A stretch of DNA of 64,000 bases from Saprospiraceae bacterium (GTDB lineage Bacteria; Bacteroidota; Bacteroidia; Chitinophagales; Saprospiraceae): NCBI GenBank assembly GCA_965222705.1, contig CBDCUO010000032.1, forward strand, positions 116,308-180,307, in the 5' to 3' direction. The notes under the pieces were generated by a model. That model worked only from the letters and a program-made list of their open reading frames with translations, was not told where the DNA came from and did not search any database. Of this stretch, positions 8,301 through 50,282 are shown piece after piece (the stretch's first letter is position 1; each line of letters begins with the position of its first letter). A program made the translations under genes and the position numbers.

Positions 8301-9870
8301 TGGCATAGTGAAACACTTTGTCTTTTACATCAATCAACTCAGATTCTTTATCGTATTTAATAAACCCTTTGGAAACCATATCGTACAGCAAAGGCTGAAT
8401 ACTGCTAATATTGAAGCGAGAATTTAGGCGTTTGGCGTATAGTCCGGCATCGACTTGTTTAGAGCCTTCCATATCGGAAAAAACTTTTAAGGTAGAAATG
8501 GGATTAACTGCTCCAAAACTTTGTAGCCTTTGATAATCACCAGCAGAAAAATATTTTAAAGACTCAAAAGCCACTTCTTTCTTGCTATTCTTGCCAACAG
8601 CTATCGCCTTCTCTCCTATGGTAATCGAATCTCGGTCAATATACCAGGTAACTTTGTCTGCATCTATATTAATTTGGTGAAAAGAGGTGAAAAAAGGATT
8701 TCGATCGCTGCCTCTTTCTCCTCGACTAAAGGACAGAATTCTATTAATAATGTCAAAACGCAAATTAACAGAAGGATGAACAATCGAATCTTCCTCTACA
8801 AACAATTCAATTTCTACCCTTTCTCCAGTAATCAATTCTCCTTTTTGAATAATAAAATTTTCTGCATTGGCCCGAAAAATTAATTTTTCATTTTCATCGA
8901 AAAGCAGAATGCTGGCAGGCGCTTCTTTTGAACCACTTCCGAGGACATTTGTGCCGTGTAATTTAAAAGAACCAATGTATTTTATCCCTGGGCCCAGGTT
9001 GTCAATTTCTAATACTTTTTTAAAGTTGAATCGAGGGAAAGATTTTATTTGTTCAGAAGCGACTAATTTGTCCTGGAAAATTCCTTTTATAGAATCTTGA
9101 AACATAGTGGGATAATAAAGCACTGCCTCTGCTACCTCATAGATCGTATTTTTTACATTGATTTCGTATCTGCCCAAATTGCAATAATGATCGGTTGATA
9201 AGCTGTGTCGTTCCCAAGTGACTTGTCCTTTTGTCCCTTTCCAAATATTTTCTAGGGGAAAAAAAGTTCCTATCGTTTTTTGAATGTAAAGAGAGTCCGT
9301 TTTTCGGGAAGCCAGCAAATCTAACTGATTAAATAAGACTTGGGGCGTTTTCTCTTTATAAATCAAATTGAAAGAATCCGCTATGGCATACCAGGAAACA
9401 CCCCCGCTTTGAGAATATTTTAAAGCATTTTGTTCAAACAAGTTCGCCGAAAATTCTAAATAATCTTTGATGGGGTTTAACCTTCGTCGCTCAATGTCCG
9501 TCATCATGCTTGATAAGACTTCATGCCATTCGATGAATCGCTGCGCTGCATTTTGCTGAGTTTTTATAAAAGTCAGCCCTTTTAAATAGGCGCTAAAATA
9601 GGGGCTGGCGGTCATTTTTAACTGAAGCATTCTGTTGCAAGTGTGTTTGATCGTATCTTGCTCCTCTACTGTAAAAGTGCCGCCCCGAAATTGCTTGCCA
9701 AACTCCTCAAAAATCTCCTGCATGACTTTTCGCTTGCTGGCGGTCATATAGTCTTTTAATTCCTCAAAAAACTGATTTTGATTTTCAGAGAAAGCTTCCA
9801 GGCGTTGGGCATTGCCAGCGAATAAAAAGGTGGTAAGTAAAAGAAAAGTGGTAAAAGCTTTTTTAGGCAT
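5389..9870 (-). CDS. Large (1493 aa) exported protein of unknown function
   Basis: This is a long uninterrupted ORF with an ATG start and a signal-peptide-like N-terminus (MPKKAFTTFLLLTTFLFAGNAQ). I recognise no catalytic motif. The composition is beta-rich and repetitive. Confidence 0.75.
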   Translation of the reverse strand: MPKKAFTTFLLLTTFLFAGNAQRLEAFSENQNQFFEELKDYMTASKRKVMQEIFEEFGKQFRGGTFTVEEQDTIKHTCNRMLQLKMTASPYFSAYLKGLTFIKTQQNAAQRFIEWHEVLSSMMTDIERRRLNPIKDYLEFSANLFEQNALKYSQSGGVSWYAIADSFNLIYKEKTPQVLFNQLDLLASRKTDSLYIQKTIGTFFPLENIWKGTKGQVTWERHSLSTDHYCNLGRYEINVKNTIYEVAEAVLYYPTMFQDSIKGIFQDKLVASEQIKSFPRFNFKKVLEIDNLGPGIKYIGSFKLHGTNVLGSGSKEAPASILLFDENEKLIFRANAENFIIQKGELITGERVEIELFVEEDSIVHPSVNLRFDIINRILSFSRGERGSDRNPFFTSFHQINIDADKVTWYIDRDSITIGEKAIAVGKNSKKEVAFESLKYFSAGDYQRLQSFGAVNPISTLKVFSDMEGSKQVDAGLYAKRLNSRFNISSIQPLLYDMVSKGFIKYDKESELIDVKDKVFHYANASREKVDYDLLKITSASNDANAIMDLKHKDMAINGVKNIEFSKKQRVGAIPTNKTLIVKDNRNMEFDGRLFAAYGVFEGKGFAFNYDMFNIKMDSVHYFNLFVPTEERDKKGNPIAKAIGSEIEYLSGYLLIDAPSNKSGSQNIGIFPSFQSKADSYVFYDQDSVYNRDSFYFQLEPFSFNSLDKFQGADLNFKGKIVSAGIFPDFEETLILKEDQSLGFLTKTPEAGYPIYRNRGNYKGAIDLSNQGFQGKGTLTYLGALVNSDDFVFKPEEMTASAERFDLEEDRSKEIPQAIGLDVRINWLPYSDSMNIRTKELPFDLYKEGDYKFSGLATLTPSGLKGSGLLNWEKANMSSDEFSFGSFSARSDTMNIQIKALEADALALKTSNLKGEVDFDKQLGTFKSNAAIGITYFPYNQYITTMDEFEWDIKDETIIFKSARNDYADFTSIHPAKDSLTFPGKSAFYNLKNSQLEIGGVSEIRSCDAFIYPETGDITIQPNGDMKRLTNAKIVADTLNKNHVINRVNIDITGRKEFSADGYYEYNIGNKKQEIYFSNITGSRVGKGKRSEKGTETRAKGTIKEEDNFYIDIKTQFRGDISLFASSKNLQFEGFAKFDAPLMPDPQWFTINSEGDKDDLTITYEVPKNYEGTPLRTGFYLSKENTRIYARTMMPLFFRKDRPILPVTGLFKYDKAKDEFIFGDSTKVIENKLRGSLLTFSNKTGKVKGEGPLNIGDGLDYISIKAAGEIETHYPNEQDSSTFDAPVVANMMAGVDMTIPPSLLRIVVNDIVSSSFDATDIAYSNKEAFYTKALSNFLLNDTELNETVNIMKNRTLFFPKKYKHHTFFFSDLLMKWDPDYQSFVSSKDVIGLGSIGVDMINKNLTCYVEFKMPSNGDDRVYIYIKSPSEYFYFFSYRGGILSTVSNNTRYNDALASLKKKETIIKMPDGENYEIQPLNPGSARQFVARIKATR

Positions 9871-20305: not shown

Positions 20306-22921
20306 ATGAATAAGATTGTTACTGTTCTTATCGCAGGTCTATTACTATTGACATCTGCAATGTATTCTCAAACTTCCTTTTCCATAAATCCTTCTGTTAT
20401 TAATGGCAATGTTGGCGAAACGGTCACCGTAGAAGTAATCGTGAATGGTTTTACAGATATTGTCAGTATGCAATATGCCCTTAAATGGGACCCTGCAGTC
20501 ATCAAATTTGCGTCCGTAGGAGATTTTAATCTGGACTTTTTACTAGCTTCCAATTTTAACGTTAATACAGCTAATACAGATTTAGGAATTCTGCCGCTTT
20601 CCTGGTTTGATAATAATACGGTAGGTATCACAGTAGCAGATGGAACGGCTATTTTTTCTGTGAGTTTTGTGGTCCAGGAGGGCAATAATTCCGGTTCCAC
20701 GATTACTTTTTCGGAGGCAACCAACTTAATTATCGAAATAACAGATGCTAATGGAGATATTACCAATACAGTGACTTTCAACGATGGCCAATTCGGTGAT
20801 CCCAATAATAACGGGGGAGGGAATACAACTCCTTTGATTTCAAGTATTTCAAGTGGGTCGGGTGCAAGTGGTGGAACGGTGTGCCTAAATGTGTCGGTTT
20901 CTAATTTTACAGATATTACGGAAATGCAATATTCGCTCAACTGGAATCCTGCCGTGCTTCAGTTTGCCGAAATAAGAAATATGAATCTGACAGGCTTAAC
21001 GCAAGCTAGCTTTGAAACGACCCAAACAGCCAATGGGCAATTATCGGTGGATTGGTCTAATGCATCCGGGCATTCTGTTGCTAATGGCACAATTATATAT
21101 CAAGTATGTTTTAATTTGATTGGAGAAGGGGGCACTAGCTCTGCTGTTTCCTTTTCTAGCTCCCCAACCCCTATTTCTGTCACGACTACCGCTTCTGCCA
21201 CTTCGGTTGGCATAAGTGGGAGTAATGGTACTATTGGGGTGACAGGCGGCAGCAGCTCTACCGATTTTAGATTGCTTGCTTCTGCAGAAACGGGAAATTC
21301 AGGCGAAACGGTTTGTGTACAAATTTCTACCCAAAATTTTACAGATATTGTCAGTATGCAGTACAGTATGAATTGGAATTCGGCAGTATTGCAGTTTGAC
21401 ACCATTTTGGGGGCTAATTTAAATGGATTATCTTTTGGAAGTTTTAATGGAGCGGTTCCTGGAGAACTCCGATTTACTTGGGATGATCCCTTGGCACAAG
21501 GAATTACTTTGGCAGATAATACAGTCATCTATGAGGTGTGTTTTACTATTGTAGGGTCGGGGGGATCTAGTACCAATATAAATTTTACAAACTCTCCCAC
21601 ACCGATTGAAATCATAGATGGAACTAACAATGAAGTGCCTTTTAATAGTACTGCTGGAGCAGTAACAGTCCTAAGCGGGACAGGTACTTCTACTGATTTT
21701 AGATTAATTGGCTCTACGGAAACAGCAGAGGCTGGCGAAACGGTTTGTGTACAAGTTTCTACCCAAAATTTTGACGATATTATTAGTATGCAATACAGCA
21801 TGAATTGGAACCCTGCTGTATTGCAATACGATACCATTCTGGGAATTAATCTGAATGGTCTATCGGTTGGAAATTTTAACCCATCTGTGGCTGGTGAGCT
21901 TCGATTTACCTGGGATGACCCCCTGGCGCAAGGGATTACTTTGGCAGACAATACCGTTATTTATGAGGTGTGTTTTGTAGCAGTTGGTTCGGCAGGAAAC
22001 AGTTCTACCGTAAGTTTTTCCAGCTCTCCAACGCCCATAGAAATTATAGATGGAGCGAGTAATGAAGTACCGTTTTTTAGCACTGCAGGGCTAGTAACCG
22101 TAGTAAGTGGGGGCGATGGAGGAGGGCCGGACTCGAGTGCGGTTTTTAATGTTGCAGATACGACGGCAGTACCAGGAAGCAATATATGTGTACCTGTTAC
22201 TTTGACTAATTTTACAAACATACTTGGGTTTCAATTTTCTATGAATTGGGATCCTATGGTGATTCAATTTGATACGATTATGAATTTTGGACTGGATGGA
22301 TTGACTGGGGGCAATTTTAATACGGTGGTACCAGATGATGGAACGCTTAGAGCGACCTGGACAGACCCACTGGGCACGGGTGCTTCGGTAAGTGACGGGA
22401 CAATTGCTTTTGAAATTTGCTTTGACGTAATTGGGGCCGATGGAACCAGTTCAAATTTGGCATTTACCAATACACCCATTGCTCAAGAGTTGGTAGATAA
22501 TTCAGGAACAATTGACTTTCTGGCTAATGACGGAAGCATAACGGTAAATAACGATGTGATTATCCCTCCTATAGAGCTTACTGTCATGTTTTCAGACGCA
22601 AGTGTCACAACAGGAGAATCTGTATGCTTACCGGTGACTGTTAATGGTTTTACCAATATTGAAGGAATGCAATATAGCATGAATTGGGACCCTGCCGTAT
22701 TGCAGTATGATACTGTTCGAGGCTTTAATTTGACAGGATTGACAGCAGCGAGTTTTAATAATTCCGATCCTGGAGCTTTGAGATTGCTTTGGCAAGACCC
22801 GAATGCCCAAGGAATAAGCATTGATGATGGTGTGGCTATTTACGAGGTTTGCTTTATTGCGGTGGGAGCGGGAGGCACTAGTACAGACATAGGGTTTTTC
22901 GGGTACACCTCTAGCCATTGA
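20306..22921 (+). CDS. N-terminal part of a frameshifted ~1757-aa multi-cohesin surface scaffold (six modules)
   Basis: It has a signal peptide and six tandem ~140-150-aa modules (GETVCVQ(I/V)STQNF.DI(V/I)SMQYSMNWNPAVLQ(F/Y)DTI...). The ORF stops 8 codons after a T5 tract (22895-22899), in the middle of module six. Confidence 0.8.
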   Translation: MNKIVTVLIAGLLLLTSAMYSQTSFSINPSVINGNVGETVTVEVIVNGFTDIVSMQYALKWDPAVIKFASVGDFNLDFLLASNFNVNTANTDLGILPLSWFDNNTVGITVADGTAIFSVSFVVQEGNNSGSTITFSEATNLIIEITDANGDITNTVTFNDGQFGDPNNNGGGNTTPLISSISSGSGASGGTVCLNVSVSNFTDITEMQYSLNWNPAVLQFAEIRNMNLTGLTQASFETTQTANGQLSVDWSNASGHSVANGTIIYQVCFNLIGEGGTSSAVSFSSSPTPISVTTTASATSVGISGSNGTIGVTGGSSSTDFRLLASAETGNSGETVCVQISTQNFTDIVSMQYSMNWNSAVLQFDTILGANLNGLSFGSFNGAVPGELRFTWDDPLAQGITLADNTVIYEVCFTIVGSGGSSTNINFTNSPTPIEIIDGTNNEVPFNSTAGAVTVLSGTGTSTDFRLIGSTETAEAGETVCVQVSTQNFDDIISMQYSMNWNPAVLQYDTILGINLNGLSVGNFNPSVAGELRFTWDDPLAQGITLADNTVIYEVCFVAVGSAGNSSTVSFSSSPTPIEIIDGASNEVPFFSTAGLVTVVSGGDGGGPDSSAVFNVADTTAVPGSNICVPVTLTNFTNILGFQFSMNWDPMVIQFDTIMNFGLDGLTGGNFNTVVPDDGTLRATWTDPLGTGASVSDGTIAFEICFDVIGADGTSSNLAFTNTPIAQELVDNSGTIDFLANDGSITVNNDVIIPPIELTVMFSDASVTTGESVCLPVTVNGFTNIEGMQYSMNWDPAVLQYDTVRGFNLTGLTAASFNNSDPGALRLLWQDPNAQGISIDDGVAIYEVCFIAVGAGGTSTDIGFFGYTSSH

Positions 22922-38022: not shown

Positions 38023-40230
38023 TTAATCTTCCACTACAACTTTTACGCTTAAATAATTGGTCTGATCTGCTCTTAATTTTACCAGATAAAGCCCCCTTGC
38101 TAAATCTTGCTTTTCAAAAGAGGCAGATAGGCTATTGGCTGCGGGAAGAAGGTATTCTGATTTTATCAATTTTCCAAAGCTATCATACAATTCTACCAAA
38201 ATTTCTTCATCAGAAAAATTACCTTCTATAAAAAGAAGTTCGCCTTTTTTTATTGGATTAGGAAAGACCTTGACAGAGACGGATTCGGATAAATCCTCCA
38301 GGCCAGTAGAAAAGTTGCGAAAATATTGTGCAGCTAGATTAAAGGCATCTATCCCAATTTGTTCGCCAATCAGACGCCCTGGAATGTCATCCGCGGGCGG
38401 ATGAATTCCTCCCCATATACGCGATAAGCTCGTCTGATCGGAGGCATCCCGATAGGTTGCCCATTGCAGAATAATGTCTTGGCTCGGCCCGTCCTCAAAG
38501 ACTAAAAATTCGTTCTTTTTGGCGATAAACTCTCCCATTCCTCCAGGGAAAAAGGGGTCGCCTGTGAGCAAGGTCATGACTTCTGCAGCAGCCCTTGAAA
38601 AGGTAGAATGTCCCGAAATATAGCCTGCAAAAGGCGGCGTAACGAAAGTAGGACGTTGATAAGGCCACCAGTTTTCTGCTAAAATCCAACCGACTCCAGC
38701 GATGTCTGTATCGGCGTTTTCAATAAAATCAGGACCTTTCCAAGCATATAATTTTATTTTATTTAGATGTTCGTTATTTGGCCCTGCCAGCGGGTCGCCA
38801 GTTTCTACTTGCTCAATATAGCCCTCAAGTAAAGGAATTCCCGCAATGTGATAATTCGGCAAATTGGGATCAGAAGATTGTCCTAGCTCTGCCAGAAAGC
38901 GAATAGCAGAAATAGGGCGCACATAATCATACCAGCCTTTTATCCCCCAGGCGGCAATGGCGGCATCGTGCACAGCACCAGCTAATGCAAAATATGCTTT
39001 GACATCCCATTCGAGCTCATCCAGTATATCCCCTTTCCCTTTGAATTTCTTTTCAAAAAGGGGATGATCATTTACATAGTTTAAAATGGTAAACCAGTGC
39101 CCTGGCGGTGTTTCCGAATCTGGTCCATCTGCCCAGAACTCTGCCAATACCCGGGCGTAGTCGGCACGTGGGACGATTTGGGGTTCGTAGGGCTGGCCAG
39201 TATGTGGGTTGATGGCGTGTCCTTTACCAATATCTCCACCCTCGAATTGTTTATAAAAATCTCTTAAGCCAAGGGTAGTGGTCGGAAACTCATCGAGGTC
39301 AATATTGCCGATTGCTCCGGGGGAAATATCCCACATTACCCCGTCTGTAGGGTCCAAATGCGAAGACCATAAAGCAACAAGCGAAAAGCCCCATTGGTAT
39401 TCGGCGGTTTCTCCCCCCCCATTTTGGATATCAATAAGCGGCGGGGAGCCGGGGTCTTTATATACCCAATAGTCATCGCCTTGCCTATTATAAATTTTTA
39501 AATCTTCTTGCTTTAAGGCGAAAGGTGTCACCAAGCCCCATTCCGGACTTAAGAATTCGGGTGCGCCTCCGGGAATTTCGTTACCGCTCTGATCTACAAA
39601 AACTTCGAAGGTTAGTGGCTGCCAGCGATTGGGATCATATAGAAAGGGATTGATAGAAAGTTCGGGAGCGAGAGGGAAGTTATAGTTTCTATAATATAGA
39701 TTGGCATAGTCCTCCTGCTCATTGGCATTATCTTGTAAGCCAAATTCAATCATATATTGTGCCAGGTAATTGCCCAAGGCGGCAGCACTTCCACCCGTAT
39801 AGTCTGTAGAAATAAAGGAAGCATCGTAGCCCAATTCTGCGAATAATTCGTCAAACCTTGTCAGCGAAGTCGCTGCGCCAGGGGAGTTGGCAAAGCGATG
39901 TTTTAGTAGGCGGTAAGCGGCGTAACTCATAGCAGTTTCTCGTTGAGTACGGATATTACCCTCTCGGGCAATTCCCTCGAAAGGACAAGTAAAGCCATTC
40001 ACCGTTTTGCCGAGCAAAAAGGTCGTTGCTGTTTCGTCATAGACTGCCCAGGCATCGTATAAAACTATAGAAGTATGGAATAAGTTGCGGGCGTGTACGG
40101 TTGGCCGAGCATAGTCTATTCTAATCGCATCCAATAAGACCTCGTTCCATTGTCTGGCGACTGAGTGTTGGGCATGTACAAAAAGGGGATTTAAAACAAA
40201 AAAGAGAAATAACAAAGGTTTAAAATTCAT
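38023..40230 (-). CDS. Secreted vanadium-haloperoxidase / PAP2-superfamily enzyme with T9SS type-A CTD
   Basis: The internal ATG at 40230 gives the signal peptide MNFKPLLFLFFVLNPLFVHAQ. The tripartite PAP2 signature is intact: KGWYDYVRP (KX6RP), YISGHST (SGH) and SRIWGGIHPPADD (SRX5HX3D). The Por-secretion tail is VKVFPNPIKKGELLF...GLYLVKL. Confidence 0.8.
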   Translation of the reverse strand: MNFKPLLFLFFVLNPLFVHAQHSVARQWNEVLLDAIRIDYARPTVHARNLFHTSIVLYDAWAVYDETATTFLLGKTVNGFTCPFEGIAREGNIRTQRETAMSYAAYRLLKHRFANSPGAATSLTRFDELFAELGYDASFISTDYTGGSAAALGNYLAQYMIEFGLQDNANEQEDYANLYYRNYNFPLAPELSINPFLYDPNRWQPLTFEVFVDQSGNEIPGGAPEFLSPEWGLVTPFALKQEDLKIYNRQGDDYWVYKDPGSPPLIDIQNGGGETAEYQWGFSLVALWSSHLDPTDGVMWDISPGAIGNIDLDEFPTTTLGLRDFYKQFEGGDIGKGHAINPHTGQPYEPQIVPRADYARVLAEFWADGPDSETPPGHWFTILNYVNDHPLFEKKFKGKGDILDELEWDVKAYFALAGAVHDAAIAAWGIKGWYDYVRPISAIRFLAELGQSSDPNLPNYHIAGIPLLEGYIEQVETGDPLAGPNNEHLNKIKLYAWKGPDFIENADTDIAGVGWILAENWWPYQRPTFVTPPFAGYISGHSTFSRAAAEVMTLLTGDPFFPGGMGEFIAKKNEFLVFEDGPSQDIILQWATYRDASDQTSLSRIWGGIHPPADDIPGRLIGEQIGIDAFNLAAQYFRNFSTGLEDLSESVSVKVFPNPIKKGELLFIEGNFSDEEILVELYDSFGKLIKSEYLLPAANSLSASFEKQDLARGLYLVKLRADQTNYLSVKVVVED

Positions 40231-40313
40231 GAGTAATTTGAATAATTTTTTGTAAAAATTCTTTCTTTGACAAAAATACAATAGATGCACAGGAAAAGCC
40301 ATAGCGAATAGAG

Positions 40314-43127
40314 CTATTTTGTCTTAGAACTTGAAGTGGCTTTCAGTAATGGGCTGATTTTATCTGCTGCCTGCGTTGCAATATGATTTCCCAGAATTCG
40401 ATAGGCTTCAAATTGCTCGTCGTCAAAGTACTGGTCAATAGTGGATTGATGTGGGAATGCTGGATTGCTTTTTAAGTAATTAAAAATAGTGACAGGAATA
40501 TTGCCCGCACTATCTCGGCTGACATTTGATTTCAAATAAACTAGTTTGCCTTCTGAAGGAGTATCTCCCGTGTATTGGATGGTTCCCTGTGCAATGCAGC
40601 AAGGCCCAAGCATTAGACCCGATTGTTCGTCCTCTTTTGGGATCATATCTTCCAAATCGATGCTGACTTGTGTATTATCTCGAACATTAGCGACCCGAAT
40701 GGCATGATTAAAAGAGGTAAAGGAAAAGTCTTGGTCTTCTTCAAAATCACAAACTACGATTACCTGACATTGTCTTTCCAAAAGTGGCAATAGACCCAGA
40801 TTGTCTCCTGTATGTCCACCGTCTGACACATAGACGCGGGGGCTTCTGGCGGTCGTTCTCCCAATCAATTCTCTGACGATATAAATTGGCCAGAAGGTTC
40901 GGTAGGGAGATAATAATCCGATGACCCTCCGATAAAAGCGATTGGCACTACTCCTTTTGATGAGCTCCAGCCGCCTTAAATTTTCATACCAGGGGTTTTG
41001 TATCCAATAGCCGGTGCGCAAGTTAAAGAGGGTCATAAAAAAGTTTTGAGCGGCAAAGCTCATGCTGCCCATTGCAGAAGAAACGGCTGCTGCCGAAATG
41101 GTCATTGCTACAGACAATCGGGTATAGCCCATTCGGTAATAGTCGGTACTCATGAACCCCGTGCTATTGGAGCCGATGAAATATTTAGAAAACAAAAAAT
41201 GATCCGATTTTAAACTTCTTTTGACCAAATCATTGGTTCCTTGTAAGTTCAAGGCGGCATTTAATAAATGATAGGGTCCTTTTTCATTGCCCTTGCCTAG
41301 GTCTTTCAATTTTAATCCAACGTGATTGCGTAGATTGATTAAGGGCATTCCCTGGTGGAGGATAGATTGTTTATTATTGGGTCTTTTCACTCGGGCGTCT
41401 GTTCGCAGATAGGCTTCTGACAATCGGTCTCGATAGAAATAATGGAAAGACAATTTGTTAATATTAGCTGTATGCCCAATAAAAAAGAATAATAAAAAAG
41501 AAAGAACAAATAACAAAACCGCAAAATAATTTACTTCATAAACGCCTCCTCTAAACCAAAAATTGGGATCTAATTGGCTATTGATGCTCAAGATAACATG
41601 GGCAGTTGCCGAAAGTAGAAAAGAGATAAAAAGAATTGTAAAAATATTTAATAATGGATTTCTGGCTCTTCGCATTAATCGGCTAAACCAGCTCTTTCCT
41701 TTTTGTCCAACAAATTGACTGGCTAGAAAAAAATAGGCAAAGCCTCCAGAAACTAGAGAAAACAGAATATTAAAGGAAATAGAAGCGGAAAATAGAAATA
41801 TGATAATGATTGGCATTAGAAAACTTAGTACCAGTCCATAGATTACAGCTCCTTGCATACCCGTATAGAGTGATCGAAAAAGCCGCCCCTGGCTATGTTC
41901 ATGATTGGCAAATTCTATCAGTGGGATGACCGCATAAATTACCAAAAATAAACCAATAGAAAAACAAAAAGGTAGGGTAAACATCAGCCAGTAGTTCACA
42001 CTATTATTGGACAAGCCCATGACGATAAAAATAGCGATATATCCCAACACTGGCCCTAAAACAATACTGACAAAAAAGAAAATTCTTTTGAAATGAAAGG
42101 TGATATATCGCTGCAAATTATACCCGGAATTTCGAGCATAATTGGCATCCGTGCTAGGGTTAATATTTGCTTGTTTTTCCTCGTATTCTGTCAGAGCAAT
42201 TTTGTTGGGCAAGAAATCAACCCTTAGAATAAAATAAAAACCCAAGGATACCCCGATTGTGAAAAACAAAAAGGCAATATCGTAATTGGTCCATAAAGAG
42301 CTCCATATTTCTTTGAGTTGTCGAGTAAAAGATTCATTTTCTTTATACCAGTTTAATAAACTTAAAATTCCTTCAAATGGCTCAGAAATTTCCTTTGGCA
42401 GGTCGGGAGATTTAACCCCCGTTTCGTCAATGATTGGCTCTGCTATGGTTTCTTCACTTAGCACAGGTATAAATAAACCTTCTGAGATCAAATGAAAAAA
42501 GCCTAAATGAAAACTCATAAACATCACCAAGATAAAAAATAACATGGCGATATTATACCAAATGCCGGATAGCAAAGACCCTACTGCCCGCATTACTTCC
42601 CAGCTAAAAATACCTTTGTCAGGGGTCAGATATTCGCCATGAGTCCGCAAGTGGTGTATTTGATGGCGAACGCCCATTCGGGTTTTATCTGCAGCTTGAT
42701 AGCCGTCATTGGCGTTCATATTGACAAAGGGTGAGGTGTCTGGGTCCAGCCCAATTTCTGTTGCGCTAAATTTTGCATTGTCTATTTCCTTTTCACCCTC
42801 CGCGTCCTCATAAGGTGGTTCTTCACTCATCAGAGAAGTCAAACAAGCACCAATATATCCACCTCCTGATACGGTACTCAGATAGTCAAAGTGTTTAAAA
42901 ACGCCTTTTTCAATGAATGCCTGAATCATGCCTAGGCCCAGGGTAGCAGAGCGGACGCCTCCTCCGGAAATGGCAATGCCAGTGGGGTTTGTCATCTTAT
43001 CATTAGGGCTATTGCATAAGCCATTATTGAATCTACGTTTTGCTAAGTACTCTTTTTCTTTGGCAATAACTTCTTGTAATTCAGTCGTGTAAATATTCTT
43101 ATCTACACTTACATCTTTTTCTTGCAT
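40314..43127 (-). CDS. Patatin/cPLA2-like phospholipase with a large polytopic membrane insertion
   Basis: The oxyanion motif is GIAISGGGVRS, the nucleophile elbow STVSGGGY, and the catalytic Asp motif YVSDGGHTGDNLG lies near the C-terminus. At least 8 hydrophobic helices lie between the Ser and Asp motifs. Confidence 0.8.
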   Translation of the reverse strand: MQEKDVSVDKNIYTTELQEVIAKEKEYLAKRRFNNGLCNSPNDKMTNPTGIAISGGGVRSATLGLGMIQAFIEKGVFKHFDYLSTVSGGGYIGACLTSLMSEEPPYEDAEGEKEIDNAKFSATEIGLDPDTSPFVNMNANDGYQAADKTRMGVRHQIHHLRTHGEYLTPDKGIFSWEVMRAVGSLLSGIWYNIAMLFFILVMFMSFHLGFFHLISEGLFIPVLSEETIAEPIIDETGVKSPDLPKEISEPFEGILSLLNWYKENESFTRQLKEIWSSLWTNYDIAFLFFTIGVSLGFYFILRVDFLPNKIALTEYEEKQANINPSTDANYARNSGYNLQRYITFHFKRIFFFVSIVLGPVLGYIAIFIVMGLSNNSVNYWLMFTLPFCFSIGLFLVIYAVIPLIEFANHEHSQGRLFRSLYTGMQGAVIYGLVLSFLMPIIIIFLFSASISFNILFSLVSGGFAYFFLASQFVGQKGKSWFSRLMRRARNPLLNIFTILFISFLLSATAHVILSINSQLDPNFWFRGGVYEVNYFAVLLFVLSFLLFFFIGHTANINKLSFHYFYRDRLSEAYLRTDARVKRPNNKQSILHQGMPLINLRNHVGLKLKDLGKGNEKGPYHLLNAALNLQGTNDLVKRSLKSDHFLFSKYFIGSNSTGFMSTDYYRMGYTRLSVAMTISAAAVSSAMGSMSFAAQNFFMTLFNLRTGYWIQNPWYENLRRLELIKRSSANRFYRRVIGLLSPYRTFWPIYIVRELIGRTTARSPRVYVSDGGHTGDNLGLLPLLERQCQVIVVCDFEEDQDFSFTSFNHAIRVANVRDNTQVSIDLEDMIPKEDEQSGLMLGPCCIAQGTIQYTGDTPSEGKLVYLKSNVSRDSAGNIPVTIFNYLKSNPAFPHQSTIDQYFDDEQFEAYRILGNHIATQAADKISPLLKATSSSKTK

Positions 43128-43503
43128 GAAGTTTTTTTAGTCACTTATTTGATTTTCACTTTGCGTTAAAGGTAATAGTTTTTGAAAAAATAAATAGCCA
43201 TTTTTTTATCATTTGATAAAATTCGACTTGGCGGCATCCTTGAATAATGTTAATAGCTGGATAATCTATCAGGAGCGGCAAAATTCCCTTCCCGAAAAAG
43301 TTCATTTGCCCATTAATATACAAGAAACATTGATAATGGCCTTGTGCTACTTAATGATTCAAGTATATGAAAATGTATTTCAAAAATTGACGGTTTTCAA
43401 ATAAAAAGGCTTCTAATTTTGTCACCTTTTTAATTAAAAAAAATAAGCAAAAGCTTTATTAATCATTTATTTGCTTTATATTTGTTGGGATTATCAACTA
43501 AAG

Positions 43504-43547
43504 ATGAGCAATAAATGAGCAATAAATGAGCAATAAATGAACAATAT
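43504..43547 (+). repeat. 11-bp tandem repeat: ATGAGCAATAA x3 plus a degenerate fourth copy (ATGAACAATAT) that carries the start codon
   Basis: Read directly from the sequence. Units start at 43504, 43515, 43526 and 43537. Confidence 0.95.
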
Positions 43548-44370
43548 TGTTACTCAACGCTTTGTCAAGTGTATTAAACAGTTAAAAACAGACGGTGTGG
43601 TGCGCTCCATGCGCCAATTTGCGCTTTCTGTAGATTATTTGCCACAAAGTCTAAGCGAAATATTGAAAGAACGGCGAGATGTCACTATTGAACTATTGCG
43701 GAAATCTGTTGAATTATATAAAATCAACCCTGTTTATATTTATACGGGAGAGGGGCCGTTGTTTATGACTGATGAAGATCACAAAAACCTTCGGGTTTTG
43801 ACCATTGTAACGAACTCGCGGGGGGATGAACGAATTGTGTACGTGCCAGTACCCGCACAAGCAGGTTATGCCAGCGAAATGTCCAACCCTACTTTTGTGC
43901 AGGATTTGCCCTCTTTTACCTTGCCGGATTATAAATACAAAGTGGGGACTCATAGAGCCTTCGATGTTTCAGGAGATAGTATGGAGCCAACCTTGTTTGA
44001 AGGAGATAAGGTCGTTTGCAGTTTTTTAGAACCCACACTATGGGAGAGTTCTATTAAAAATAATTTTGTTTATGTAATTGTGACCCGTGCCGATGTATTG
44101 GTAAAAAGGGTTTTTTCATTTTTGAAAGAAGAAAAGCAAATTGAATTGCACTCTGACAATTCTTTTTATGCGCCTTATCGCATTAATTTGAGCGATGTTA
44201 GAGAGATCTGGTATGTGCGTGCCAAAATAAGCCCTTTTTTGCCTTCGCCCCAAAACATCTCCAATATGCTTCGAGAGGATATGCAGGAATTGCGCAAGCA
44301 ATTGGGCAATCAAAATAGAATGATCGAGATTTTGAATGAAACTATGGAAAAATTAGCGAATAAGCCATAG
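43537..44370 (+). CDS. CI/LexA-like self-cleaving repressor (HTH plus peptidase S24) with C-terminal coiled-coil extension
   Basis: The N-terminal HTH-like segment is MRQFALSVDYLPQSLSEIL. The S24 serine motif is VSGDSMEPTLFEGDKVV and the lysine motif is VLVKRV. A heptad-rich tail of about 50 aa follows. Confidence 0.8.
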   Translation: MNNIVTQRFVKCIKQLKTDGVVRSMRQFALSVDYLPQSLSEILKERRDVTIELLRKSVELYKINPVYIYTGEGPLFMTDEDHKNLRVLTIVTNSRGDERIVYVPVPAQAGYASEMSNPTFVQDLPSFTLPDYKYKVGTHRAFDVSGDSMEPTLFEGDKVVCSFLEPTLWESSIKNNFVYVIVTRADVLVKRVFSFLKEEKQIELHSDNSFYAPYRINLSDVREIWYVRAKISPFLPSPQNISNMLREDMQELRKQLGNQNRMIEILNETMEKLANKP

Positions 44371-47753: not shown

Positions 47754-49838
47754 TCACCTTTTGAAGGTTGTTCGAACAGTTGTGTTCCAGATTTGGTTGT
47801 AAAAATCTAGCACGAGCCGGTTGGTGGTAAGCGTTCGAATAGTGTATAAATCTCCCCCAATGTTGACTATTTCTCCTTGTAGGTTATAAGTTAGAGTGGT
47901 GTGATTATAACCGTCAAATACGGTATAGGTTCCGTTTGGATAATAGGTACAATACATATCCATATTTATGCCCAAATCACTAGCAGAAACCCCATTGGCA
48001 CTAAAGTCTTGCAAATACCAGGTGCCTTGTAATAGGTCAAATTTAGTAGGTGATGGCGTATATTTTTCTTCTTCTAAGATTTTATTATCCTCTGCTGGCA
48101 AAGTTTCCGATTCTTGATAAGCCGTTTGTGGTTCAGAGCCATCTTCTACATTATTGATGACGACCACCGTAAATAAAGCAATAACCACAAAAGCTAAACC
48201 ACCTAAAAATACTGATAAACTAGATTTTTTCTTTTTGCTTACTTTTTTAGGAACTCTCTTGGTTGTTGAAGGGCGGTATTGGCCTTCCTGTAATTTTAAC
48301 TGACAACTCTTAATCCAGTCCTCCAGTTTTTTGCTAGGGCCAAATTCTTTCGCTTTTTGAAAATACTGGATAGCTAATACATAATTTTCTTCAGCATAGG
48401 CTTTTTTCCCGTCGTTGAATAATTGGATCAGTTTATCCTTTTGCTTACAGGTTTCTAGTTTTTCTTCAATATAATTTAAATCAGGAGCAAATCCCGGCAG
48501 AAAATGCTGCATACTTTGACGATAATGCGCTGCTGCTTCTGAAAACTTACGGTGCTTAAATAGTTGCTCTGCCTGATTGATGCCTTTTTTAAATAATGCT
48601 CTTTTTTCAGTGACACTTGCTTCTTGTTGTGCTTTTTGAACTGCTAGATTTTGTTTTTCTTTGATAAAAGCTTTTTCTCGATTTTGAGCGGTTTCAAAAG
48701 CTTTTATTTGATGATTAGCTTTGTCAATATACTTTCCTTCTGGATATTTTAAAGCATATTCCAAAAAGGCAGAAAGCGTATTTTTTAAATTGGCATCTTT
48801 CCAGCATGCTTCTTCTTCCACGATGGCGAGTTGCTCAACAGCCTGCTTATAATACTTTCCGTCCTTGTAATTCCGAATATAGCTGAGGTAAGCCCCCGTA
48901 GTATGTTCATTTTGGGCAAATCGCCAAATTTCTTCTTCTTTTAAAGCATGGATTCGTTTGGCAGCTCTCCGTAAAAACTGGCCGCTGGGAAAAAGCCTGG
49001 CATAATGCTCAAAGGCAGTGACGGTATTTTTTTGTTCAGCGATTGCCCATACGTCTGCCTCATCTTGTCGGGGACGAAAAATTAATTGTCCCCCTTTATG
49101 TCCTTTCACTTTTAGAGGCTCACCCCGAGGCGTTTGGTCGGCATTAGAGATAACCGCTTCAACCACTTTATTACATAATTCGGAAACGCTTAATGGTTTG
49201 ACTGCCGTTTTTAAATGATAAATCAAGCTATCTGCAAAAGGACTATTGTTGCCTGGTTTGCCGTCTAACACCAATTCTGTTCGACCGGCAGTTAGCCCCC
49301 AGCGAGATGGGTCTTTTTCTAGGCGGTTGGTTGCTCCAATACTTTTATAGGTAGCAAATAAACTACCTGAGAAACAGGAGTCCACTACCAGGAAAGTATG
49401 TTTGGAATTAATGGCATTTAGGTTATCTCGGATATCACTATTGGAAATATAATTGTGGTAGGCTCCTTGTTCGGCATTTACTGGCACCCAAAAACCCCGA
49501 TCTCTAAGTTGATCGTATTCGCCGTGGCCGGAGAAAAAAATCACTACATTATCATTATTTGTTACGGTCTGTGCCAGTTTTAAAAAAGCCTGATCTATGT
49601 TTTTTTCGGTAGCTTCTTGATCGAATAGGGTAATGATATTTTCTGATTCAAAAGCGTATTTTTCAGATAGCACTTTTATTAATTCCTTTGCATCTTTTAC
49701 GGCATTGTACAGTTTCGGGCAATGATAATAATCATTTATTGCAATGGAAAGGAGATGGTTTTTTCCCAACGGAAGGGCTTTTTTTGTCTGTTTTTCCTTT
49801 TGGAGACTGCCGAGATGACGATAATTCTGTTCAGACAT
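47754..49838 (-). CDS. Membrane-spanning caspase-family (peptidase C14) protein: caspase, helical repeats, TM, lipocalin-like domain
   Basis: The His motif is VVIFFSGHG and the Cys motif is FLVVDSCFSGS. Three ~38-aa repeats (W..A...NT..A...Y...(F/Y)P.G.Y) and a TPR-like segment follow. There is a single TM (LSVFLGGLAFVVIALFTVVVI) and a C-terminal LLQGTWYLQDF... lipocalin-like pattern. The ATG at 49838 is preferred over the TTG at 49856. Confidence 0.8.
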   Translation of the reverse strand: MSEQNYRHLGSLQKEKQTKKALPLGKNHLLSIAINDYYHCPKLYNAVKDAKELIKVLSEKYAFESENIITLFDQEATEKNIDQAFLKLAQTVTNNDNVVIFFSGHGEYDQLRDRGFWVPVNAEQGAYHNYISNSDIRDNLNAINSKHTFLVVDSCFSGSLFATYKSIGATNRLEKDPSRWGLTAGRTELVLDGKPGNNSPFADSLIYHLKTAVKPLSVSELCNKVVEAVISNADQTPRGEPLKVKGHKGGQLIFRPRQDEADVWAIAEQKNTVTAFEHYARLFPSGQFLRRAAKRIHALKEEEIWRFAQNEHTTGAYLSYIRNYKDGKYYKQAVEQLAIVEEEACWKDANLKNTLSAFLEYALKYPEGKYIDKANHQIKAFETAQNREKAFIKEKQNLAVQKAQQEASVTEKRALFKKGINQAEQLFKHRKFSEAAAHYRQSMQHFLPGFAPDLNYIEEKLETCKQKDKLIQLFNDGKKAYAEENYVLAIQYFQKAKEFGPSKKLEDWIKSCQLKLQEGQYRPSTTKRVPKKVSKKKKSSLSVFLGGLAFVVIALFTVVVINNVEDGSEPQTAYQESETLPAEDNKILEEEKYTPSPTKFDLLQGTWYLQDFSANGVSASDLGINMDMYCTYYPNGTYTVFDGYNHTTLTYNLQGEIVNIGGDLYTIRTLTTNRLVLDFYNQIWNTTVRTTFKR

Positions 49839-50282
49839 AGCTATGTTTTTTGCCAAATTTCTAAGGTTTGGGTATCTAAATTTAATTCTTTTTTTGAAAA
49901 GATGCTTTGAAAACCAACTGCCAGCTTATTGATAAGTGTTTAAAAAGGGGGTATTGTATCCTGACTTATTCACTAGTAATTTTATAGTGAAAAAGTAAAA
50001 GCTAGAAGAAGTATAAGGCAAAATTGCTGTGATTGGTATCATATTTGATTAATAATAATGTGTTTTAGCTTTTAGACCTAAACATTTAATATTCTTACCT
50101 GTATTCATTTTAGCAACTTAATCTCGCTTACAATTCTATAATATCAATCTCCGTCGTACTACTGCTTTAGGAAAAGCCAGTAATTTCCAAAGACAAATTT
50201 TATAAAGCTCATCTTCTCTAAAATTCAGAGAAAACCCTTTGTTTTTTCAAAATTTTAAGGAGCATAACCGATTTAAGCAACT

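What the first reader, a model, noticed from the sequence alone, without database searches (positions are those of the whole stretch)
40314..43127. Patatin/cPLA2-type lipase whose catalytic Ser and Asp are separated by a block of 8 or more membrane helices
The N-terminus carries the glycine-rich oxyanion motif GIAISGGGVRS and the nucleophile elbow STVSGGGY. Both resemble cPLA2 SGGGFR and GLSGS. The matching D-G-G motif (YVSDGGHTGDNLG) appears only about 690 residues later.

Between them lie at least eight strongly hydrophobic ~20-aa segments, for example IFFFVSIVLGPVLGYIAIFIVMGL, YWLMFTLPFCFSIGLFLVIYAVIPLI and LLNIFTILFISFLLSATAHVILSI. Typical patatin-like proteins are soluble with a small cap between the dyad halves. 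Here the cap position appears to be replaced by an integral-membrane domain, implying a lipase embedded in its own substrate.

No CD-NTase/cyclase gene (CBASS) and no secretion-system gene is adjacent. The gene is transcribed divergently from an S24 self-cleaving repressor. One possibility is a stress-released membrane-disrupting effector, but this is speculative.
Basis: partly seen in the sequence, partly recalled or inferred. Interest (0 to 1): 0.7.

Follow-up and report, generated by a model that had tools for sequence, protein, structure and literature searches.

The report
Phospholipase split by eight membrane helices
This gene encodes a phospholipase related to animal cytosolic phospholipase A2 whose catalytic domain is interrupted by about 380 residues forming eight membrane-spanning helices; the family is large, widespread in bacteria and unstudied, and the enzyme probably cuts lipids of the cell's own inner membrane from the cytoplasmic side.

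Summary
ORF 40314..43127(-) encodes a 937-aa protein with an oxyanion loop (S54-GGG-V-R59), a nucleophile (T85-V-S87-GGG) and an Asp motif (S768-D769-GG). Eight hydrophobic helices (residues 176-556) lie between Ser and Asp. All three motifs are invariant in every homologue where the position is present, across more than 10 phyla. AlphaFold2 gives one confident assembly (pLDDT 87.7, pTM 0.90). Foldseek's best PDB hits are human cPLA2 alpha and delta. With the membrane block removed, the family profile aligns collinearly with cPLA2 through both Ser228 and Asp549. Loop charges indicate N-in/C-in topology, so both catalytic halves are cytoplasmic. The family has about 7,800 clusters at 50% identity. 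It is a stand-alone gene with no conserved partner, absent from phages, and syntenic across seven Bradyrhizobium species. The membrane block is not at the cPLA2 cap position; it maps near cPLA2 residue 272, upstream of the cap. The S24 repressor neighbour is only local synteny. I read it as an inner-membrane-integrated cPLA2-type acyl hydrolase, a new architectural variant of a known enzyme class. Its physiological role is unresolved.

The parts
40314..43127 (-). Whole gene: 937-aa membrane-integrated cPLA2/patatin-type phospholipase (stop codon 40314-40316)
   Evidence: ORF list; Pfam Patatin and PLA2_B hits; more than 2,000 homologues; AF2 pLDDT 87.7, pTM 0.90
42603..43127 (-). N-terminal cytoplasmic half of the catalytic domain (residues 1-175): helix E24-x-x-Y-L-x-x-R-R, strand 1, Gly-rich loop, nucleophile elbow, and the conserved HQxHHLRxHGEYLTP motif just before TM1
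   Evidence: Translation check; invariant residues; secondary structure E49-54/H57-73/E82-85/H88-99; aligns to cPLA2 residues about 147-272
42951..42968 (-). Oxyanion-hole and phosphate-binding motif S54-G-G-G-V-R59
   Evidence: Invariant in 108 sequences and 65/65 genomes; aligns to cPLA2 SGGGFR
42858..42878 (-). Nucleophile elbow S84-T-V-S87-G-G-G90; the catalytic Ser87 lies between strand 82-85 and helix 88-99
   Evidence: S87 kept in 66/66 genomes; aligns to cPLA2 G-L-S228-G-S; strand-Ser-helix geometry
41460..42602 (-). Inserted polytopic membrane block (residues 176-556): eight TM helices (AF2 helices 176-214, 282-303, 338-372, 381-406, 410-446, 452-473, 480-518, 534-553), two variable periplasmic loops (215-281, 519-533), and a conserved cytoplasmic loop carrying R418-S419
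   Evidence: Hydropathy; AF2 helices; alternating K+R loop content 5/6/0/3/0/3/1; 8 peaks is the mode across 62 genomes; no significant PDB analogue; no Pfam family
40317..41459 (-). C-terminal cytoplasmic half of the catalytic domain (residues 557-937): N557-x-x-S-x-HYFYRDRL motif directly after TM8, core beta-strands, a shortened cap-equivalent (about 668-765), the Asp motif and C-terminal helices
   Evidence: Strong conservation; strands 575-866; collinear alignment to cPLA2 about 273-719
40815..40826 (-). Catalytic Asp motif S768-D769-G-G771, at the end of strand 764-768
   Evidence: D769 and G770 kept in 80/80 genomes; aligns to cPLA2 V-D549-S-G
43128..43536 (.). 409-bp divergent intergenic region shared with the S24 repressor gene (context only; no operator identified)
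   Evidence: Promoter-like sites and inverted repeats at chance level
43537..44370 (+). Neighbour, probably not functionally linked: 277-aa S24-peptidase/CI-like repressor
   Evidence: Pfam S24 E 3e-11; PHROG 4 repressor; present next to the 70%-identical homologue only

Best explanation
The gene encodes a polytopic inner-membrane acyl hydrolase (phospholipase A or lysophospholipase, possibly also a transacylase) of the cPLA2/patatin superfamily. A cPLA2-like alpha/beta catalytic domain is split about 90 residues after the nucleophile by a roughly 380-residue insertion that forms eight transmembrane helices. The helix number is even and the topology is N-in/C-in, so the N-terminal piece (oxyanion loop G55-G57, phosphate-binding R59, nucleophile S87) and the C-terminal piece (core strands, D769) come together on the cytoplasmic face as one Ser-Asp dyad enzyme. 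The active site would then be held permanently against the inner leaflet. Three conserved elements at the membrane-cytoplasm boundary probably form the portal through which a membrane glycerolipid reaches the active site: HQxHHLRxHGEYLTP before TM1, R418-S419 between TM4 and TM5, and NxxSxHYFYRDRL after TM8. The gene acts alone, with no conserved partner. Its most likely role is turnover or remodelling of the cell's own membrane phospholipids. Shown computationally: the architecture, motif invariance, topology bias, single confident fold and cPLA2 relationship. Inferred: Ser-Asp juxtaposition, substrate, portal and physiological role.
For: Catalytic motifs are invariant across 108 homologues and more than 10 phyla. 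AF2 gives mean pLDDT 87.7 and pTM 0.90, with strand-loop-helix geometry at G55-57 and S87 and strand-Asp at D769. Foldseek's top hits are cPLA2 alpha 1cjy and cPLA2 delta 5iz5 at probability 1.00 over 427-444 columns, whereas patatin, PlpD, ExoU and VipD match only 50-160 columns. hhalign of the TM-excised profile against cPLA2 gives E 9e-5 over 433 collinear columns through Ser228, Asp549 and flanking motifs. K+R content alternates between loops and the N-terminus is hydrophilic with no signal peptide, giving an 8-TM N-in/C-in topology. Helix counts across genomes are mostly even: 8 in 28 and 10 in 18 of 62. No neighbour family recurs in more than 5 of 51 loci, and those that recur are housekeeping genes. 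The locus is syntenic in 7 Bradyrhizobium species. There are no phage copies and no PADLOC hit. One member is fused to a class-3 lipase domain.
Against: No coordinates were available, so the Ser87-Asp769 distance and the position of the active site relative to the membrane were not measured. The hhalign probability is only 59%, against a low-diversity cPLA2 profile. Foldseek TM-scores are low (0.21-0.30) because of the insert. The first Gly of the canonical G-x-S-x-G is Thr here. No member has been characterised, so hydrolase versus transacylase activity and the substrate are unknown. The distribution is patchy, copies occur on rhizobial megaplasmids, and an always-membrane-bound phospholipase would need tight control. 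These last points are also compatible with a conditional, toxic function.
Confidence: 0.6

Rival explanations
1. Single-gene abortive-infection or stress suicide effector. The enzyme is kept inactive in the membrane, the TM block or its variable periplasmic loops sense envelope perturbation such as phage entry or membrane damage, and activation destroys the inner membrane.
For: Patatin-type lipases are known death effectors (CapV, PMC12480259, listed). The distribution is patchy and copies occur on rhizobial megaplasmids and chromids. The periplasmic loops carry clade-specific inserts of up to about 135 aa. An always membrane-apposed lipase must be gated.
Against: No PADLOC or PHROG match and no phage-borne copies. 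Neighbourhoods are housekeeping, not defence islands. The locus is fully syntenic across 7 Bradyrhizobium species. The soluble domain is strongly conserved across phyla, unlike fast-evolving defence genes.
Confidence: 0.15
2. One reading: a DNA-damage-released membrane-disrupting effector repressed by the divergent S24 (LexA/CI-like) self-cleaving repressor.
For: The divergent 277-aa gene has an S24 domain with GDSMEP and VKR motifs and matches phage repressor families. The same arrangement occurs next to the 70%-identical homologue.
Against: In that relative the whole S24-sigma70-MFS transporter block is syntenic, so common descent explains it. Homologues at 51-52% identity have unrelated upstream genes. 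No S24 family recurs in 51 diverse loci. No operator-like repeat or promoter signal above chance was found in the 409-bp spacer.
Confidence: 0.07
3. A biosynthetic or remodelling acyltransferase (transacylase) rather than a net hydrolase. The Ser-Asp dyad forms an acyl-enzyme from a donor phospholipid and passes the acyl chain to an acceptor lipid held by the TM block.
For: From established knowledge, several patatin/cPLA2 enzymes (cPLA2 gamma, PNPLA3) show transacylase activity. A large conserved membrane domain with invariant R418, G426 and P439 suits binding a second lipid. The stable chromosomal context fits.
Against: There is no direct evidence. The TM block has no detectable similarity to any acyltransferase or other known membrane family. 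The fusion to a class-3 lipase points to catabolism.
Confidence: 0.15
4. A catalytically dead, lipase-derived membrane protein (transporter or scaffold).
For: The nucleophile elbow departs from G-x-S-x-G (T-V-S-G-G).
Against: Ser, Asp, the Gly-rich loop and Arg are all invariant over thousands of divergent sequences, which is the signature of a working active site.
Confidence: 0.03

Closest known systems
Eukaryotic group IV cytosolic phospholipase A2 and fungal phospholipase B (Pfam PF01735 PLA2_B; PDB 1cjy, 5iz5)
   Same: Best structural matches. The collinear profile alignment covers the pre-motif helix (E-x-x-F/Y-x-x-x-R-K/R), SGGGxR, the Ser elbow, LLTPxK, FSPYEIG-like, V-D-x-G...N-L-P...P-L and I-x-x-D-F-S/E blocks. 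Both use a Ser-Asp dyad with an Arg after the Gly-rich loop. The Pfam PLA2_B score is above its cut-off.
   Different: cPLA2 is soluble and recruited to membranes by a C2 domain or lipid anchor, and has a roughly 180-residue cap with a lid just before the Asp. Here there is no C2 domain, the cap-equivalent is about half as long, and an 8-TM block is inserted at a different site, about cPLA2 residue 272. This family is bacterial.
Bacterial soluble or secreted patatin-like phospholipases (CapV of CBASS, ExoU, VipD, RssA/YchK, PlpD/FplA type Vd)
   Same: Gly-rich loop, Ser elbow and D-G-G dyad motifs. The N-terminal roughly 50-70 residues align.
   Different: Those proteins are soluble, secreted, or tethered through a separate C-terminal beta-barrel. 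None has membrane helices between Ser and Asp. No CD-NTase, chaperone, POTRA or beta-barrel is present here. Similarity is confined to the N-terminal motifs.
PlaF of Pseudomonas aeruginosa (single-pass inner-membrane phospholipase A1; from my own knowledge)
   Same: A functional analogy: a cytoplasmic-membrane-anchored phospholipase A acting on the cell's own glycerophospholipids for membrane remodelling.
   Different: PlaF is a classical alpha/beta-hydrolase with a Ser-Asp-His triad and one N-terminal TM helix. Its catalytic domain faces the periplasm and it is unrelated in sequence. This comparison was not tested here.
Mycobacterial-type long patatin proteins (TIGR03607 / DUF3376; from my own knowledge)
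   Same: Long bacterial patatin proteins with hydrophobic segments.
   Different: As I recall, their extra region follows the complete patatin domain rather than splitting it. Neither NCBIfam nor Pfam DUF3376 matched this protein.

Membership tests
Patatin-like phospholipase domain (PF01734 / PNPLA) | Profile match above the curated threshold | tested here: met
   39.5 bits against a cut-off of 27.7, but only profile positions 2-69 of 191
Patatin-like phospholipase domain (PF01734 / PNPLA) | Gly-rich oxyanion loop G-G-x-R/K after strand 1 | tested here: met
   S54-GGG-V-R59 is invariant; strand 49-54 then loop then helix 57-73
Patatin-like phospholipase domain (PF01734 / PNPLA) | Nucleophile elbow G-x-S-x-G | tested here: inconclusive
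   The Ser and the following glycines are invariant, but the first Gly is Thr (T85-V-S87-G-G). The strand-Ser-helix geometry is kept.
Patatin-like phospholipase domain (PF01734 / PNPLA) | Catalytic Asp in D-G-A/G at the end of a strand | tested here: met
   D769-G-G kept in 80/80 genomes; strand 764-768 precedes it; aligns to cPLA2 Asp549
Patatin-like phospholipase domain (PF01734 / PNPLA) | Ser and Asp juxtaposed in one alpha/beta fold | tested here: inconclusive
   pTM 0.90 and Foldseek probability 1.00 to cPLA2 over about 430 columns imply one fold. No coordinates were returned, so the distance was not measured.
cPLA2 / PLB catalytic domain (PF01735, PLA2c) | Profile match above threshold and full-length collinear homology | tested here: met
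   PF01735 scores 26.8 bits against a cut-off of 23. hhalign gives E 9e-5 over 433 columns after excising the TM block, at probability 59%. Foldseek's top hits are 1cjy and 5iz5.
cPLA2 / PLB catalytic domain (PF01735, PLA2c) | Large cap with lid between the core and the Asp | tested here: not met
   The cPLA2 cap stretch aligns mostly to gaps and the equivalent stretch here is about 100 aa. The cap limits are from memory.
cPLA2 / PLB catalytic domain (PF01735, PLA2c) | Soluble enzyme with separate membrane targeting (C2 domain, lipidation or secretion) | tested here: not met
   No C2 domain or signal peptide is present. An 8-TM insert is present instead.
CBASS CapV-type effector | Adjacent CD-NTase or cyclase gene and a match to defence-system models | tested here: not met
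   The neighbours are a VCPO-like T9SS cargo, YggS, a kinase, an S24 repressor, sigma-70 and an MFS transporter. PADLOC gave no hit. No recurrent partner was found in 51 loci.
ExoU / VipD secreted toxins | Secretion-system context and homology beyond the N-terminal motifs | tested here: not met
   Only residues about 28-101 align, at E 0.02-1.3. Foldseek covers 55-162 columns at low probability.
Type Vd autotransporter (PlpD / FplA) | POTRA domain plus C-terminal 16-strand beta-barrel | tested here: not met
   No such Pfam domains are present. The C-terminal half is an alpha/beta core, not a barrel.

The most novel reading that the evidence does not exclude
This is the founding example of an undescribed, very large bacterial class of cPLA2-type enzymes in which a polytopic membrane domain of novel fold has been inserted inside the catalytic domain. 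The domain would form a built-in conduit that feeds inner-leaflet lipids to a cytoplasmic Ser-Asp active site. The family would also be the closest prokaryotic relative of eukaryotic cPLA2/PLB and so bear on their origin.
Probability: 0.35. Interest if true: 0.75.

Novelty: new variant of a known kind. Interest (0 to 1): 0.55.

Why it matters
Patatin and cPLA2 enzymes are textbook peripheral, interfacially activated lipases. A version that is permanently integrated in the bilayer through a domain inserted between its two catalytic residues is a different answer to the problem of substrate access, and none of the eight literature searches found it described. The family is large: about 7,800 clusters at 50% identity at E<=1e-30, and at least 588 species genomes. 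It occurs in tractable bacteria (Bradyrhizobium, Sinorhizobium, Rhizobium, Mesorhizobium, Massilia, Mucilaginibacter, Spirosoma, Pontibacter), yet it is annotated only as 'patatin-like phospholipase family protein'. Characterising it could reveal a route of bacterial inner-membrane lipid turnover or remodelling. It could show how an always-membrane-bound lipase is kept in check. It could also give a prokaryotic reference point for the evolution of eukaryotic cPLA2 and phospholipase B.

Tried and rejected
1. NCBIfam, PADLOC and PHROGs scans of the protein gave no hits.
2. The PDB sequence search, with the single sequence and with the family profile, aligned only the N-terminal motifs.
3. hhalign against E. 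coli RssA as a single sequence was uninformative beyond the N-terminus, so I replaced it with a cPLA2 profile built from real database sequences.
4. hhalign with the TM block left in derailed inside the membrane region, at probability 43%.
5. A profile search with the TM block alone, looking for a free-standing relative, returned one fragment of the same family. It was probably swamped by hydrophobic words, so it is uninformative rather than negative.
6. An internal 4+4 repeat in the TM block was not detected (probability 0.4%).
7. The TM block has no significant PDB analogue; MgtE, AcrB and LeuT hits have probability below 0.4.
8. The S24 neighbour as a regulator: not conserved.
9. The downstream VCPO-like gene as an operon partner: absent even in the 70%-identical relative.
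10. An operator or promoter in 43100-43560: signals at chance level, and the scan does not cover Bacteroidota promoter types.
11. Eight literature searches found no description of the architecture. A Bradyrhizobium transcriptome paper lists a patatin-like gene, Bll7964, that I could not link to this family.
12. My first regex-based motif survey was too strict and was replaced by an HMM alignment. My first crude TM counter over-counted and was recalibrated to give 8 for the query.
Full report
OBSERVATION. The three motifs are present. S54-G-G-G-V-R59 is in GIAISGGGVRS, S84-T-V-S87-G-G-G90 is in STVSGGGY, and S768-D769-G-G771 is in YVSDGGHTGDNLG. Ser87 and Asp769 are 682 residues apart. Pfam reports Patatin (PF01734, 39.5 bits, cut-off 27.7) and PLA2_B (PF01735, 26.8 bits, cut-off 23). 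Both match only the N-terminal part; the patatin match covers profile positions 2-69 of 191. NCBIfam, PADLOC and PHROGs give nothing.

NOT CHANCE: A LARGE CONSERVED FAMILY. A word-indexed search found more than 2,000 homologues. Most are full-length (about 850-1,100 aa) and, where named, are called 'patatin-like phospholipase family protein'. An exhaustive profile search of 1.84 billion cluster representatives found 7,778 proteins at E<=1e-30, 14,528 at 1e-10 and 20,026 at 1e-3. They span Bacteroidota, Acidobacteriota, Desulfobacterota, Planctomycetota, Verrucomicrobiota, Alpha-, Beta- and Gammaproteobacteria, Chloroflexota, Gemmatimonadota, Nitrospirota and Acidimicrobiia. Cultured Bradyrhizobium, Mesorhizobium, Massilia, Mucilaginibacter, Spirosoma, Pedobacter and Geomonas are among them.

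In 108 aligned homologues the invariant residues include S54, G55-G57, R59, S84, V86, S87, G88-G90, G770 and G771, and D769 is at least 90% conserved. In an HMM alignment of the genome-encoded proteins, every sequence that has the position keeps G55-57 and R59 (65/65), S87 (66/66), and D769 and G770 (80/80). Ser-Asp spacing is 513-818 residues, median 668. Restricted to the insert and calibrated so that the query gives 8, the number of hydrophobic peaks is 8 in 28 and 10 in 18 of 62 genomes, with a range of 5-11. Insert length has a median of 390 residues. The split architecture therefore defines the family and is not a quirk of this gene.

ONE FOLD FROM TWO HALVES. AlphaFold2 with the 108-sequence alignment gives mean pLDDT 87.7 and pTM 0.90. 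A pTM that high means the relative placement of the N-terminal piece, the helical block and the C-terminal piece is confidently predicted. The local geometry is what a patatin or cPLA2 active site requires:
- strand 49-54, then the Gly-rich loop, then helix 57-73;
- strand 82-85, then Ser87, then helix 88-99 (the nucleophile elbow);
- strand 764-768, then Asp769-Gly-Gly.

Eight long helices (176-214, 282-303, 338-372, 381-406, 410-446, 452-473, 480-518, 534-553) make up the insert.

Foldseek against the PDB ranks human cPLA2 alpha (1cjy, E 2e-5) and cPLA2 delta (5iz5) first, at probability 1.00 over 427-444 aligned columns. That is far more than the 175 N-terminal residues could supply. Patatin, PlpD, ExoU, VipD and CapE match only 51-162 columns at much weaker scores. 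TM-scores are low (0.21-0.30) because of the insert. The tools returned no coordinates, so the Ser-Asp distance itself was not measured. This is the main untested step.

WHERE THE INSERT SITS. I used my recollection of human cPLA2 alpha only as bait and retrieved genuine vertebrate cPLA2 proteins. I aligned twelve of them (A3) and confirmed G-L-S228-G-S and V-D549-S-G in a 749-aa member. I then removed residues 176-556 from the family alignment and ran hhalign against the cPLA2 catalytic domain. The result was E 9.2e-5, probability 59%, and 433 collinear columns spanning family residues 17-927 and cPLA2 about 147-719. The matched blocks are:

| This protein | cPLA2 alpha |
|---|---|
| E-K-E-Y-L-x-x-R-R | E-K-x-F-R-x-x-R-K |
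| SGGGVR | SGGGFR |
| T-V-S87-G-G | G-L-S228-G-S |
| YLTPDK | LLTPQK |
| HFLFSKYFIGS | DWVEFSPYEIGM |
| V-S-D769-G-G-H-T-G-D-N-L-G-L-L-P-L-L | V-V-D549-S-G-L-T-F-N-L-P-Y-P-L-I-L |
| VIVVCDFEED | LIISFDFSAR |

With the TM block left in, the alignment derails (probability 43%). The excision junction falls right after YLTPDK, at about cPLA2 residue 272. That is 44 residues after Ser228 and roughly 100 residues before the cap (370-548 by my memory of Dessen et al. 1999). The cap itself aligns mostly to gaps. The equivalent stretch here (about 668-765) is roughly half as long. The membrane block is therefore an additional insertion at a different site, not a replacement of the cap. About 300 soluble residues still lie between Ser and Asp, similar to the 321 in cPLA2.

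TOPOLOGY. The N-terminus is hydrophilic with no signal peptide. Across 108 sequences the median K+R content of successive loops is 5 (with 8.5 acidic residues), 6, 0, 3, 0, 3 and 1. This alternation fits the positive-inside rule for eight spans with both termini inside. The two long outside loops (215-281 and 519-533) vary greatly in length, from 38 to 135 and from 1 to 137 residues. They carry clade-specific inserts. Conserved residues cluster at the cytoplasmic boundary:
- H155-Q-x-H-H-L-R-x-H-G-E-Y-L-T-P169 before TM1;
- R418-S419 and G426 at the start of TM5;
- N557-x-x-S-x-H-Y-F-Y-R-D-R-L-x-E571 right after TM8.

I infer that these form the junction and lipid portal between bilayer and active site. 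R59 corresponds to cPLA2 Arg200, which by established knowledge contacts the phospholipid phosphate. The TM block has no Pfam family, no significant PDB analogue and no internal repeat. A profile search for free-standing relatives was uninformative.

GENOMIC CONTEXT. In the window the gene is flanked downstream, after an 11-bp gap, by a 759-aa DUF6851/VCPO-like protein with a T9SS sorting tail. Upstream and divergent is a 277-aa S24-peptidase repressor, followed by sigma-70 and an MFS sugar transporter. The rest of the window is ordinary Bacteroidota chromosome, with T9SS cargo proteins and sensor kinases.

In the 70%-identical relative the S24-sigma70-MFS side is syntenic, but the downstream gene is an acetyltransferase. 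At 51-52% identity the upstream genes are unrelated. Other homologues sit among enolase, tRNA synthetase, TetR, glycosyltransferases and similar genes. Clustering the flanking ORFs of 51 diverse loci found no family in more than five loci. The few that recur are oligopeptidase F, SpoU methylase, M61 aminopeptidase, FAA hydrolase and a sigma-54 activator.

Seven Bradyrhizobium species share a fully syntenic locus, with flanks 86-92% identical over 70-99% of their length. There are no phage-borne copies. Plasmid matches number 39 records and are mostly rhizobial megaplasmids and chromids. One family member carries an N-terminal class-3 lipase domain, and others have unannotated N-terminal extensions.

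MECHANISM AND RIVALS. The best reading is an autonomous, inner-membrane-integrated cPLA2-type acyl hydrolase whose active site is assembled on the cytoplasmic face and acts on inner-leaflet glycerolipids. My confidence in the architecture is about 0.9. For lipid acyl-ester chemistry it is about 0.7. For the whole statement, including a membrane-lipid turnover or remodelling role, it is about 0.6.

Rivals:
- A single-gene abortive-infection or stress effector gated by the TM block (0.15). This fits the patchy distribution and the need for gating, but not the housekeeping, syntenic, phage-free context or the lack of defence-model hits.
- A transacylase making a specific lipid (0.15).
- A dead enzyme (0.03), contradicted by the invariant active-site residues.

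COMPARISON WITH THE KNOWN, AND NOVELTY. The protein belongs to the patatin/cPLA2 superfamily and is specifically cPLA2/PLB-like. It fails two features typical of cPLA2: a large cap, and being soluble with separate membrane targeting. It is not a CapV, ExoU/VipD or type Vd protein. Eight full-text searches found no description of a patatin or cPLA2 enzyme split by a polytopic membrane domain. Databases call it only 'patatin-like phospholipase family protein'. I classify it as a new variant of a known kind, of moderate to good interest (0.55). It is a large, widespread, experimentally untouched family with an unusual solution to interfacial catalysis, and it is possibly the closest bacterial relative of eukaryotic cPLA2.

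Noticed in passing
window 38023-40302 (-): A 759-aa protein with DUF6851, a vanadium-chloroperoxidase-like second helical-bundle domain and a T9SS C-terminal sorting tail. Its start codon is only 11 bp after the phospholipase stop, so it may be co-transcribed here. It is not next to the 70%-identical homologue in L087.
   Followed up: partly
window 43537-44370 (+): A 277-aa S24-peptidase, CI/LexA-like repressor with GDSMEP and VKR motifs and matches to phage repressor families, yet no prophage genes are evident nearby. The S24-sigma70-MFS transporter block is syntenic in L087.
   Followed up: partly
window 47754-49856 (-): A 700-aa caspase-domain (Peptidase_C14) protein with a long helical or repeat-like middle part and one hydrophobic segment near residue 550. 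It could be a conflict or programmed-death type protein.
   Followed up: no
window 5389-9870 (-): A 1,493-aa ORF with no Pfam family at E<=1e-5.
   Followed up: no
window 20306-22921 (+): An 871-aa protein with four cohesin domains in a Bacteroidota T9SS/SprB-rich neighbourhood. L004 and L006 neighbours show faint dockerin hits.
   Followed up: no
P0128 (1,252 aa) and P0171, P0173, P0217, P0233, P0189, P0210: Some family members carry N-terminal extensions of 170-650 aa. P0128 has a class-3 lipase domain fused in front of the TM-split phospholipase. The other extensions have no Pfam match.
   Followed up: partly
residues 215-281 and 519-533 of the protein (window 42285-42485 and 41529-41573); P0065, P0084, P0085, P0089: The two predicted periplasmic loops carry clade-specific inserts of up to about 135 residues, which could be sensor or interaction modules.
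   Followed up: no
L016, L018, L019: In three distant MAGs (one unclassified bacterium, one Hyphomicrobiales, one Ignavibacteria) the homologue lies between a SpoU-type methylase (immediately upstream in L016 and L019, about 2 kb upstream in L018) and a convergent M61 aminopeptidase. The shared arrangement is unexplained.
   Followed up: partly
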